A model generated the notes under the pieces. The model did not search any database, was not told the DNA's origin, and worked only from the letters and a program-made list of their open reading frames with translations. Below are positions 44,966 to 47,630 of a stretch of 64,000 nucleotides of DNA, one piece after another. The position numbers and the translations under genes are program-made. The DNA is from the human T2T-CHM13v2.0 reference genome, Homo sapiens: the NCBI RefSeq assembly GCF_009914755.1, contig NC_060940.1; one strand, written 5' to 3'. The first letter of the stretch is position 1. Every line of letters starts with the position of its first letter.

Positions 44966-45265
44966 GGCCAGGAACCATGGCTCATGCCTGTAATCCTAGC
45001 ACTTTGGGAGGATGGGGCAGGTGGATAACCTGAGGTCAGGAGTTTGAGACCAGTGTTGCCAACATGTTGAAACACTGTCTGTACTTATAAATACAAAGGT
45101 TGGCCAGGCATGGTGGTGAGTGCCTGCGATCCCAGTTACTCGCGAGTCAGAGGCAGGAGAATCACTTGAACTTGAGAGGTGGAGGTTGCAGTGAGCTGAG
45201 ATCGTGCCACTGCACTCCAGCCTGGGTGGCAGAGTGAGACTCTGTCTCAAAAAGAATAAATAAAT
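44966..45265 (+). mobile_element. Alu with several A>G changes
   Basis: Dimer; linker reads ACAAAGGTTGG. Confidence 0.9.
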
Positions 45266-46089
45266 AGATATTGACTATAGGGTAATTTCTATGATTATAT
45301 TATTTAGAAGCATGAACAAAATCCATACATTTGTGAGTCTTGAATACATATTTTTATAAACTTCTTAGATATTTTTATTTGAACATGTGGCCTCTCTGCC
45401 TGCAAACACATAAAGACTTTTAATTTTGATTTACATAAAGTTAAAAATACACATATATTACTCTAAAGATAAACCTTAGGAAAGAAAATTATGGAGTGAG
45501 TGTGTTTGTATGAGTATGAGTTCGTACCTATTTTCAGAAGAATATAGCAATATCAGAACAAAACAAATCATTTTAATAAGGTTATTAATTTACTAGATCA
45601 TAAAAACCTCAAAAATGCTGAAAGCAAATTTATGCTCTCAGCTTTGTATTAAATTCATTACTGTAAAACCTTATGGCTTATGGTTCAGAATCTCTCCACA
45701 CAAACTCTTTGCCCGGTACTCATGCCAGACCTATAATTTTGTTTGTTATAATTTTTTGTTTTATAGTTTATGAAGTATCCATTACCCGAGCTGGTCAGTG
45801 ATTATAAGAGTGCTTTTTATAAAATTTAGTAGTGCACACAATTTTTAGATGTAATTCCATAATTAATGTAGTGTTATATTTTATTTAGAACATTCTGTTT
45901 TGTTCTTTTAGATGCAGATGCCTATATAAGCCTACTTTTCTTTAGTTATTGTCCTTTCACTTTTTATAGATGACGTAAGTGAATTTACTTATTTATTGAG
46001 TCATTCTCTTTTTAGGTAAGTACTAGGGAACTTTCATAAGTCATGAAAATGTTTTTATATATAAATGTATCAAAGAAACATGACAGTGA

Positions 46090-46396
46090 GGCCGGGTGTG
46101 GTGGCTCATGCTTGTGGTCCTGGCACTTTGGGAGGCTGGGGTGGGCGGGTAACCTGAGGCCAGGAGTTCAGGACCAGCCTGGCAAACATGGCGGAACCCC
46201 ATCTCTACTAGAAGTGCAGAGATTGGCTGGGCGTGGTGACACGTGCCTGGGGTCTCAGCTACTCAGGAGGCTGAGGCAGGAGAATCACTTCGTTCCAGGA
46301 GGTGGAGGTTACAGTGGGATGAGATCGCGCCGCCGCATTCCAGCCTGGGTGACAAAGCGAGACTCTGTCTCAAAAAAAAAAAAAAAAAAAAAAAAG
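46090..46396 (+). mobile_element. Alu, heavily A>G substituted
   Basis: TSD AAAGAAACATGACAGTG; linker TAGAAGTGCAGAGATTGG. Confidence 0.9.
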
Positions 46397-46479
46397 AAAG
46401 AAACATGACAGTGCTTGCTGTGTAACTGATGCTCCATAATAAGCCATAAATATTTCTGCTGGAGTTAGTTTGTAACTTC

Positions 46480-46926
46480 AAGTCAGCTGTTTCTGGTCTT
46501 TTTTTGTTTGTCCCACTCCATTGGAGTATGTGTCTGTTTTTCTTCAATTACCATACTGTTTTAGCTAATATAGCTTTTTAGTATATTTCAAAGTCAGGTA
46601 GGGTGATATATTCACCCTTCTTTTTTTCTTTATTGCTTTGCTACTTTGGGTCTTCTGTGGTACAATATAAATTTTAGATGTATGTTTTAAAATTTATATT
46701 AAGTGTGTCACTGGTATTTTCATAGAGGTTGCATTATATCTGTGGATTATTTTGTGTAATATGGATATTTAACAATATTAATAATGCCAATTCATTTATA
46801 GATAATATTTTTCCATTCGTGTATTTAATTTTGTACTTCAGTATTGTTTAGATTATAATGCACAGGTTTTTCCACTTTTGGTTAAATTTATTTCAAAGTA
46901 TAATTACTACAGTTGTTGTAGATGAG
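46480..46926 (-). mobile_element. Ancient L1M ORF2 fragment
   Basis: Degenerate antisense ORF2 (CCATACTGTTTTAGCTAATATAGCTTT). Confidence 0.6.
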
Positions 46927-47190
46927 TTGGTTTTTTTTTTGTTTTTTTTTTTTTTGTTTTTTGAGATGGAGTCTCTCTCTGTTGCTCAGGCTGGAGTGCA
47001 CTGGTGTGGTCTCAGCTTGCTGCAACCTCTGCCTCCTGGGTTCAGGCAATTCTGCCTCAGCCTCCTGAGTGGCTGGGAATGCAGGCGTGTGCCACCACAT
47101 CCAGCTAATTTTTGTATTTTTGGTGGAGACTGGGTTTCGCCATGTTGGTTAGGCTGGGCTTGAACTCCTGACCTTGTGATCTGCCTGTGA
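46927..47190 (-). mobile_element. Alu lacking its first ~50 nt, with + strand A>G changes
   Basis: Reverse dimer ending at GTGATCTGCCTG; TTTTGGTGGAGAC in place of TTTTAGTAGAGAC. Confidence 0.9.
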
Positions 47191-47313
47191 AATTATGCTG
47201 AATTTCTGAATTAGAAAAAGAAAACATTTTTTCTAATAAAATCATAAACGTCTTATGGCCATACCCTAAAAATGATGAAGCAGAGAGTGTAGGTTATTTA
47301 AGACCATGCTATG

Positions 47314-47630
47314 GGCCTGGCACAATGGCTCACGCCTGTAATCCCAGCACTTCAGGAGCCCAAGGCGGGTGGATCACGAGGTCAGGAGTTTGGGACCAGC
47401 CTGACCAGCATGGTGAAACCCCGTCTCTACTAGAAGTCCAGAGGTGGGCCGGGTGTGGTGGCATGTGCCTGTGGCCCGGCTACTTGGGAGGCTGAGGCAG
47501 GAGAATCACTTAAACCCAGGAGGTGGAGGTTGTGGTGGGCCGGGGTCACGCCATTGCACTCCAGCCTGGGCGACAGAGCAGGACTCTGTCTCAAAAAAAA
47601 GAAAAAAAAGAAAAAAAAAACAACAAAAAA
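47314..47630 (+). mobile_element. Alu, heavily A>G substituted
   Basis: Linker TAGAAGTCCAGAGGTGGG; GTTGTGGTGGGCCGGGGTC in place of GTTGCAGTGAGCCGAGATC. Confidence 0.9.

What the first reader, a model, noticed from the sequence alone, without database searches (positions are those of the whole stretch)
44966..47630. Fossil ADAR hyper-editing written into genomic DNA: four Alus of mixed orientation share + strand A>G clusters
Seen: against the recalled Alu consensus, by-eye counts give roughly 5 (44966,+), 18 (46090,+), 8 (46927,-) and 15 (47314,+) A>G changes. They are on the + strand whatever the Alu orientation. Examples: TAAAAATACAAAAATTAG>TAGAAGTGCAGAGATTGG, TTAGTAGAG>TTGGTGGAG, GAGTAGCTG>GAGTGGCTG, GCAGTGAGCCGAGATC>GTGGTGGGCCGGGGTC. 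Flanking Alus (42351, 43068, 49550) lack this pattern. Known: ADAR deaminates A to I (read as G) in inverted-Alu dsRNA and favours UAG contexts, which are frequent among these sites. Inference: a + strand transcript folded on the inverted Alus, was edited, reverse-transcribed and re-entered the germline, either as a long retrocopy or by cDNA-templated replacement of the locus.
Basis: partly seen in the sequence, partly recalled or inferred. Interest (0 to 1): 0.9.

Follow-up and report, generated by a model that had tools for sequence, protein, structure and literature searches.

The report
Fossil RNA editing frozen in DNA
A 5.6-kb stretch of human chromosome 16 is an inserted copy of a chromosome 19 sequence whose Alu repeats carry clustered A-to-G changes that the original lacks, most likely because an RNA already edited by the enzyme ADAR was copied back into germline DNA an estimated 20-30 million years ago, which would leave a permanent record of ancient RNA editing; two more such copies turned up elsewhere in the genome.

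Summary
Window 44778-50364 is a 5.6-kb copy (5.5% diverged outside Alus) of chr19:23,354,795-23,348,896, which lies 2.4 kb downstream of a KRAB zinc-finger gene on its sense strand. It sits 130 bp behind VN1R66P between 14-bp target-site duplications; four paralogous loci show the empty site. Polarised against the unedited source, the four Alus gained 40 A>G versus 3 T>C on one strand (p=3e-9); the source gained 1 and 3, and non-Alu DNA is symmetric (34 vs 38). Changes favour 5' A/T (29/80) over 5' C/G (11/122). Most likely an ADAR-edited 3'-extended transcript was retrotransposed by L1 about 20-30 My ago. Weak points: A-tail only 2-7 nt, no 3' G preference, first Alu marginal. Motif searches found two further copies with unedited parents (a chr8 processed pseudogene, 11 vs 1; a chrX copy of chr12, 28 vs 0) and more A>G-rich Alus, so this is a class. 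Ten literature searches found no description; subscription journals are mostly not covered.

The parts
44761..44777 (+). 5' copy of the target-site duplication; exact 14-bp core ATATAAAGAATTAT at 44764-44777, 17 bp if the preceding AAA is included; the site reads TTTT/AC on the bottom strand
   Evidence: TTTT/AC is among the L1 endonuclease sites in Table 1 of PMC4859970
44778..50364 (+). inserted copy (5587 bp) of G000:C19:23354795->23348896 (minus strand, 5900 bp); first few bases at the 5' junction are ambiguous (shared T run)
   Evidence: K2P 0.057 outside Alus
44966..45256 (+). Alu1, weakly A>G-changed (4 of 58 A)
   Evidence: p=0.06 alone
46090..46379 (+). Alu2, heavily A>G-changed (16 of 57 A); its four-change linker motif is unique in the genome
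46610..46625 (.). empty site: the chr19 source has an extra antisense AluY-like element here (C19:23352640-23352880) that the copy lacks; likely inserted in the source after the copy was made
   Evidence: AluY assignment from recalled diagnostic bases
46945..47186 (-). Alu3, antisense, lacking about the first 52 consensus positions; 5 of 29 A on the + strand changed to G; the only antisense Alu inside the copy
47314..47600 (+). Alu4, heavily A>G-changed (15 of 58 A), 128 nt from Alu3; none of 7 A in the first 52 positions changed
49550..49834 (+). Alu5, inside the copy, unchanged (0 of 58 A); 2.3 kb from the nearest antisense Alu examined
50346..50351 (+). TATAAA, candidate variant polyadenylation signal 13 nt before the end of homology; the source continues with a T/GT-rich stretch and no A run
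   Evidence: sequence; function inferred
50365..50371 (+). short non-templated A-rich remnant (2-7 nt depending on where the duplication is taken to start)
50372..50385 (+). 3' copy of the target-site duplication (exact 14 bp)

Best explanation
Window 44778-50364 is an inserted copy of a chr19 sequence whose Alus gained one-strand A>G clusters, and it is most likely an L1-made retrocopy of a single ADAR-edited RNA. Shown: the source lies on the sense strand 2.4-8.3 kb downstream of the stop codon of a KRAB zinc-finger gene (by position probably ZNF724, name recalled), has A at the changed sites, and the copy sits between target-site duplications at a site that is empty in paralogues. Inferred: a 3'-extended transcript of that gene ended at a cryptic poly(A) site; its inverted Alus paired (Alu3 with Alu4 best, also with Alu2; upstream antisense Alus outside the copied part may have served too); ADAR turned about a quarter of the adenosines of Alu2 and Alu4 into inosine; in a germ cell or early embryo L1 ORF2p nicked an A/T-rich site behind VN1R66P, reverse-transcribed 5.6 kb, put C opposite inosine and stopped short (5' truncation). 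The copy became fixed about 20-30 My ago and has since diverged neutrally. No present function is proposed: it is a record of an event.
For: Source found, single close match, 89-93% identity, sharp ends. Left and right flanks adjoin (3-37 bp apart) in four paralogous loci on C7, C10, C20, C24 and carry one copy of the target. 14-bp exact duplication and TTTT/AC site. Zinc-finger exon at C19:23358917-23357222 and KRAB exon near 23367100, both on the minus strand, so tail, gene sense and A>G strand agree. 40 A>G versus 3 T>C on the copy's lineage, 1 versus 3 on the source's, 34 versus 38 outside Alus. 5' A/T 29 of 80 versus 5' C/G 11 of 122, p=3e-6; changed sites include the TA positions 27, 136, 162, and PMC526178 reports four TA hot spots (passages). 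Load follows distance to an antisense Alu: heavy at 128 and about 600-800 nt, none at 2.3 kb. Independent repeats: chr8 processed pseudogene with intron loss and poly(A), 11 versus 1; chrX copy of chr12, 28 versus 0 over an inverted pair.
Against: The A tail is only 2-7 nt, while the chr8 pseudogene of similar divergence keeps about 18. No intron lies in the copied part, so splicing cannot prove an RNA step. No 3' G preference. 5' G is also depleted among A>G differences outside Alus (1 of 163), so that part of the ADAR motif does not discriminate here; only the 5' C contrast does. In the Alu3/Alu4 fold 18 of 20 changed but also 55 of 67 unchanged A lie at long-range pairs. Three sense Alus share one antisense partner, and Alu2 is changed at 3 of 6 A in a part Alu3 lacks, so re-pairing or outside partners must be assumed. 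Alu1 is marginal. Transcription of the source stretch was not tested.
Confidence: 0.82

Rival explanations
1. Still an edited RNA copied into DNA, but the template was a non-polyadenylated nuclear RNA such as an excised intron ending at a 3' splice site, or an RNA fragment primed without a real poly(A) tail.
For: Homology ends exactly at CAG and the tail is very short; heavy Alu editing is typical of nuclear RNA (established knowledge).
Against: No pyrimidine tract precedes the CAG and other AGs lie close upstream; a TATAAA 13 nt upstream and a T/GT-rich stretch downstream fit a poly(A) site better. A target-site duplication at an endonuclease-like site fits ordinary L1 priming.
Confidence: 0.08
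2. The 5.6 kb moved as DNA or as unedited RNA, and the A>G clusters arose later at the chr16 site, by ADAR acting on DNA in RNA-DNA hybrids or by local conversion with edited cDNA.
For: No intron loss and a short tail leave the RNA step unproven; such routes are proposed in PMC10209271 (passages). A lone Alu on chr11 with 24 A>G has its own duplication and no paralogous flank found.
Against: The changed strand is the sense strand of the source gene; four Alus are hit on one strand with clean non-Alu DNA between them; the same pattern appears in a proven processed pseudogene. Two rare events would be needed instead of one.
Confidence: 0.05
3. Ordinary mutation: GC-biased gene conversion, transcription-linked strand asymmetry or conversion by other Alus.
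For: Position 163 is G in 38% of control Alus, so 2 of the 40 changes could be Alu-to-Alu conversion.
Against: GC bias would raise T>C equally (3 seen versus 40); asymmetry would show outside Alus (34 versus 38); most changed positions are G in 6% or fewer of controls; the Alu2 linker motif occurs once in the genome.
Confidence: 0.02
4. cDNA-templated replacement of a resident chr16 locus.
For: None at this site.
Against: Paralogues show that the site held none of this sequence before, and the parent is on chr19.
Confidence: 0.01
5. Assembly artefact from a modern edited cDNA.
For: Raw reads were not examined.
Against: The copy differs from the source at 5.5% of non-Alu sites with symmetric changes and many indels, and lacks an Alu and two tandem duplications that the modern source has.
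Confidence: 0.01

Closest known systems
L1-mediated processed pseudogenes / retrocopies (PMC4859970, passages)
   Same: Target-site duplication, endonuclease-like site, 5' truncation, A-rich 3' end, parent elsewhere in the genome.
   Different: Holds no coding sequence, only a region downstream of a gene; tail nearly gone; carries about 40 RNA-level edits. It is not in the annotation supplied.
ADAR hyper-editing of inverted Alus in RNA (PMC526178, PMC3197674, PMC4365171; passages)
   Same: One-strand A>G clusters in sense and antisense Alus, TA hot spots, 5' neighbour bias, dependence on a nearby inverted partner.
   Different: Here the G's are in genomic DNA and fixed; the 3' G enrichment reported in PMC4365171 is not seen.
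APOBEC-edited retrotransposons fixed in genomes (PMC2873906, PMC4866542; passages)
   Same: A deaminase's clustered marks on a retrotransposition intermediate preserved in the germline and read by comparing copies.
   Different: Those are G>A from C deamination of cDNA in retroelements; this is A>G from deamination of the RNA, in a host transcript. The PMC4866542 filter keeps G>A and discards A>G.
Retroprocessing of edited transcripts in plant organelles and kinetoplastids; ADAR-type A>G hypermutated retroviral LTRs (recalled, not read)
   Same: Edited RNA reverse-transcribed so that the edit becomes genomic.
   Different: Other enzymes or genomes; often replaces the resident gene, whereas this is a new insertion in the primate nuclear genome.
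A>G substitutions and polymorphisms at RNA-edited sites (PMC7186786, PMC10209271; passages)
   Same: Editing sites that become G in DNA.
   Different: Those are single-site statistics explained by selection or by a proposed write-back at the same locus; this is one datable multi-site event at a new locus and does not show write-back at the parent.

Membership tests
L1-mediated retrocopy | Parent sequence elsewhere in the genome, sharp ends | tested here: met
L1-mediated retrocopy | Target-site duplication and empty site | tested here: met
   14 bp exact, 17 with leading A's; flanks adjoin in four paralogues
L1-mediated retrocopy | Endonuclease-like site resembling TTTT/AA | tested here: met
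   TTTT/AC, listed among real sites in PMC4859970
L1-mediated retrocopy | Non-templated poly(A) tail after a polyadenylation signal | tested here: inconclusive
   2-7 nt A-rich remnant absent from the source; variant signal TATAAA 13 nt upstream
L1-mediated retrocopy | Loss of introns | tested here: inconclusive
   copy is collinear with the source; no intron available to lose. Met in the chr8 case
L1-mediated retrocopy | Source is transcribed on the copied strand | tested here: inconclusive
   same strand as, and 2.4 kb behind, a KRAB-ZNF coding exon; no RNA data available
ADAR hyper-edited Alu RNA | Clustered A>G on one strand regardless of Alu orientation | tested here: met
   40 versus 3
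ADAR hyper-edited Alu RNA | Confined to repeats with a nearby inverted partner | tested here: met
   non-Alu 34 versus 38; Alu5 0 of 58; Alu3/Alu4 fold -363 kcal/mol
ADAR hyper-edited Alu RNA | 5' neighbour preference U/A over C/G | tested here: met
   29 of 80 versus 11 of 122, p=3e-6; pooled over three loci 54 of 139 versus 25 of 204; caveat: 5' G is also low in the non-Alu background
ADAR hyper-edited Alu RNA | 3' G preference | tested here: not met
   17 of 80 versus 23 of 122, p=0.72; only UAG itself is enriched, 6 of 8
ADAR hyper-edited Alu RNA | Same positions are edited in present-day RNA of the source | not testable with these tools
   needs RNA-seq or an editing database
APOBEC-edited retroelement | G>A clusters on the sense strand | tested here: not met
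   copy-lineage G>A 12 versus C>T 16 in Alu1-4

The most novel reading that the evidence does not exclude
The human genome holds an unreported class, probably tens to hundreds of loci, of ADAR-edited RNAs written into the germline: retrocopies such as this one, the chr8 pseudogene and the chrX copy, an amplified unit in 15q11-q13, and lone hyper-edited Alus such as the chr11 element, some of which may come from edited Alu RNA or from conversion in place by edited cDNA. Together they would be a dated, single-molecule archive of germline ADAR activity through primate evolution and direct evidence that RNA editing feeds heritable sequence change.
Probability: 0.55. Interest if true: 0.88.

Novelty: new variant of a known kind. 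Interest (0 to 1): 0.78.

Why it matters
Whether A-to-I editing can become heritable DNA sequence has been argued from statistics (PMC7186786, PMC10209271), and a 2016 review called a role of ADAR in Alu evolution undetermined (PMC4982230). Here is a concrete case with parent, empty site and polarised counts, plus two repeats. Each copy records one RNA molecule in a germ cell or early embryo millions of years ago, so ADAR site preference, editing load and transcript ends can be compared across time. It would also show that L1 reverse transcriptase copies kilobases of inosine-rich, structured RNA. In practice such copies resemble edited reads of their parents and may confuse RNA-editing pipelines and Alu subfamily calls. 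No function or disease link is shown.

Tried and rejected
(1) In-place replacement of a resident locus: rejected by empty sites. (2) Segmental duplication including VN1R66P: homology to chr19 starts at 44774 and the alignment upstream is noise. (3) Fold as a site-level test: changed and unchanged A's lie at long-range pairs about equally often (18 of 20 versus 55 of 67), so it shows only that a duplex can form. (4) Duplex energies of copy versus source were not used: the source Alu3 has a 36-nt deletion and G is not inosine. (5) Restoration of decayed CpGs (CA to CG) may hide further edits: apparent source G>A 23 versus C>T 11, p=0.058, not counted. (6) A control motif with three A>G at 5'-G sites gave 0 matches against 17 and 8, but 5'-G sites also mutate less in the background, so this control is weak. 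(7) Alus near 18 older paralogues of the source region (L003-L020), including the isolated copy on C14, show no A>G excess (at most 5). (8) Two of the five non-chr15 hits (C8:103.46M, 4 versus 1; C13:73.74M, 4 versus 4) are consistent with chance. (9) Carmi et al. 2011 Nat Commun was not held; earlier scan findings were not open. (10) No protein folding or complex prediction was run: the feature is non-coding.

Full report
Observation. The window is human chr16 (T2T-CHM13). I built an Alu consensus from 108 near-full-length Alus of the window and of 120 kb of chr19, leaving out the insert's and the source's own (116 found, 8 left out), and counted non-CpG changes on the + strand. Its control Alus give 2/0, 4/7 and 0/3. 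The 108 controls average 1.66 A>G and 1.14 T>C in Alu sense, with maxima of 7 and 4.

The source. Searches with two non-Alu stretches each returned one close match, on chr19 minus strand at 90% and 93% identity; all others were older paralogues at about 70-85%. Against 120 kb of chr19 the match runs from window 44774 to 50364 and stops sharply on both sides. The copy is 44778-50364 (5587 bp) and the source C19:23354795->23348896 (5900 bp). All five Alus of the copy are in the source, with A where the window has G. The source has an extra antisense Alu at window 46617, AluY-like by recalled diagnostic bases, and two short tandem duplications that the copy lacks. A 565-codon C2H2 zinc-finger frame at C19:23358917-23357222 and a KRAB exon near 23367100 lie upstream on the same strand. 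The copied stretch starts 2.4 kb after that stop codon. By position the gene is probably ZNF724; the name is recalled and comes from no call.

An insertion with L1 marks. The window sequence left of 44778 and right of 50365 adjoin, 3 to 37 bp apart, in four paralogous loci on C7, C10, C20 and C24. An alignment with five paralogues shows one copy of the target. The window has two: an exact 14-bp repeat at 44764-44777 and 50372-50385, 17 bp if the leading A's are counted. The site reads TTTT/AC on the bottom strand, a variant listed among real L1 endonuclease sites in PMC4859970 (passages). After the last homologous base the window has six A's where the source has a T/GT-rich stretch; a TATAAA lies 13 nt upstream. 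The non-templated part is only 2-7 nt, which is weak evidence of a poly(A) tail, and no intron is available to be lost.

Direction and pattern of the changes. Taking as ancestral the base shared by source and consensus, Alu1-4 gained 4, 16, 5 and 15 A>G on the copy's lineage, 40 in all, against 3 T>C (p=3e-9). The source's lineage gained 1 A>G and 3 T>C. Alu5 gained none of 58. Over 4063 non-Alu columns the differences are symmetric: A>G 34, T>C 38, G>A 35, C>T 32. With a generous background rate the four Alus give p=0.06, 5e-12, 1e-3 and 7e-11, so the first Alu is marginal. By 5' neighbour the changed fraction is T 11 of 27, A 18 of 53, G 7 of 66, C 4 of 56; A/T versus C/G p=3e-6. UAG is changed at 6 of 8 sites. 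There is no 3' G preference (17 of 80 versus 23 of 122). In non-Alu DNA 5' G is also rare among A>G differences (1 of 163), so only the low rate after C (background 8 of 225, as high as after A or T) is specific. PMC526178 reports four TA hot spots and a T/A 5' preference (passages); PMC4365171 reports G depleted upstream and enriched downstream (passages). Two of the 40 changes are at position 163, which is G in 38% of controls.

Structure. The source Alu3-Alu4 stretch (610 nt) folds at -363 kcal/mol; with Alu2 included and the extra Alu removed, the best fold has 127 Alu3-Alu4 pairs and 35 Alu2-Alu3 pairs. Alu3 lacks about the first 52 consensus positions; Alu4 has 0 of 7 A changed there and 15 of 51 beyond, which fits but is too few to be significant. 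Alu2 has 3 of 6 changed there, so it needs another register or partner; two antisense Alus lie 0.7-1.2 kb upstream of the copied part in the source. The fold does not separate changed from unchanged A's (18 of 20 versus 55 of 67). Alu5, 2.3 kb from the nearest antisense Alu examined, is untouched.

Age. K2P distance outside Alus is 0.057 +/- 0.004, or 19-29 My at 1.0-1.5e-9 per site per year (rates assumed from general knowledge). That excludes a modern cDNA contaminant. Primate genomes and raw reads were not available.

Other cases. A four-change linker motif matched only Alu2 genome-wide. A three-change antisense motif gave 17 matches: Alu3, 11 in 15q11-q13 and 5 others; I fetched 9 of the 16 others, with A>G / opposite counts of 7/3, 12/1, 14/1, 12/2 (chr15) and 7/2, 4/1, 13/2, 8/1, 4/4, three of each being preselected. 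A three-change sense motif gave 8 matches, all fetched: 7 to 24 A>G versus 0 to 2 T>C; 7 of 8 also have G at 162 and 7 of 8 at 172, positions not in the motif and G in 0% and 4% of controls. A control motif gave 0 but is weak. Flanks were traced for three. (a) C8:146.17M is a processed pseudogene of a p24/EMP24-family gene (Pfam; probably TMED10P1, name recalled) with a parent on C14, one intron lost and a poly(A) tail after AATAAA; its 3' UTR Alu gained 11 A>G versus 1 T>C, none at 11 5'-G sites, non-Alu 19 versus 20 for A>G and G>A. (b) C23:114.35M copies C12:68.41M from the first base of a sense Alu; the inverted pair gained 15 and 13 A>G, no T>C, and the parent none; its 3' end was not mapped. 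(c) C11:126.69M, with 24 A>G, is a lone Alu with its own flanking repeat and no paralogous flank found, though only 40 of 7592 candidates were scored. The chr15 hits are a tandem unit of Alu pieces copied many times; its origin was not traced.

Mechanism. Shown: parent, insertion, duplication, empty sites, one-strand Alu-restricted A>G with a 5' bias. Inferred: transcription through the source, ADAR as the enzyme, L1 as the copier, the germline or early embryo as the place. I put the edited, polyadenylated retrocopy at 0.82, another RNA template at 0.08, later change at the new site at 0.05, and drift, replacement and artefact at 0.04 together.

Literature. Ten full-text searches, judged from listings and abstract starts, returned no description of ADAR-edited retrocopies; 'retrocopies' with 'ADAR' and 'A-to-G' gave 0 papers. 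Passages read: PMC526178, PMC3197674 (no mention of retrotransposition), PMC2873906 and PMC4866542 (APOBEC G>A fixed in retroelements; no ADAR in the latter), PMC4365171, PMC4982230 (ADAR's role in Alu evolution undetermined in 2016), PMC5224506 (L1 RNA itself not found edited), PMC10209271 and PMC7186786 (editing sites becoming G), PMC4859970. No supplements were read, and they could hold lists that bear on this. Most subscription journals are not in the library, and Carmi et al. 2011 Nat Commun was not held, so an earlier report cannot be excluded. Edited-RNA retroprocessing in plant organelles and A>G-hypermutated retroviral LTRs are recalled parallels.

Verdict. A real feature, correctly read by the first stage in its main alternative. 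It joins two known processes, so I rate it a new variant of a known kind, interest 0.78, raised by the evidence that it is a class.

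Noticed in passing
L063:1-3760 (G000:C8:146170300-146174060, +); parent L065 (C14:69.34M, -): Processed pseudogene of a p24/EMP24-family gene with intron loss and poly(A); its antisense 3' UTR Alu gained 11 A>G versus 1 T>C. The sense Alus seen in the parent stretch lie in an intron and beyond the poly(A) site, so editing would have happened on pre-mRNA.
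   Followed up: yes
L075 (G000:C23:114354200-114355930, -); parent L076 (C12:68406099-68407842, -): Copy starting at the first base of a sense Alu; inverted Alu pair gained 28 A>G and no T>C; 3' end and target-site duplication not mapped.
   Followed up: partly
L074:1410-1755 (G000:C11:126.689M, +): Lone full-length Alu with its own flanking direct repeat and 24 non-CpG A>G versus 2 T>C; either an Alu RNA edited before insertion or conversion in place.
   Followed up: partly
L064:2640-4730 (G000:C15:21.109-21.111M) and ten other matches in 15q11-q13: Tandem unit of sense Alu monomers and antisense Alus with 11-14 same-strand A>G per full Alu, many shared between units, repeated across segmental duplications; possibly an old edited unit that was amplified.
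   Followed up: partly
L066-L069, L071, L073 (C1:196.40M, C4:187.64M, C5:9.73M, C6:56.87M, C23:56.03M, C23:135.09M); L058, L061 (C2:7.20M, C10:32.57M): Further Alus with 7-14 one-strand A>G and 0-2 opposite changes; flanks not examined.
   Followed up: partly
window 43734-44777 versus 44778-50364: A piece from a chr19 KRAB-ZNF cluster landed 130 bp behind a VN1R pseudogene between KRAB-related genes on chr16; the flanks and the insert have different paralogue sets, so the neighbourhood looks coincidental.
   Followed up: partly
G000:C14:46861532-46862364 (L005) and C4:123686240-123690874: Isolated, older (71-77%) copies of the same ZNF-downstream sequence family outside the clusters, possibly earlier retrocopies; the two Alus in L005 show no A>G excess.
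   Followed up: partly
window 7551-8511 and 27235-28198: Two L1-like stretches of opposite orientation match the same chr19 segment (87% and 94%); ordinary repeats.
   Followed up: no
window 50627-50919: Older, more diverged Alu just outside the insert with 6 A>G versus 1 T>C but also 8 G>A and 10 C>T; likely subfamily differences from the consensus.
   Followed up: no
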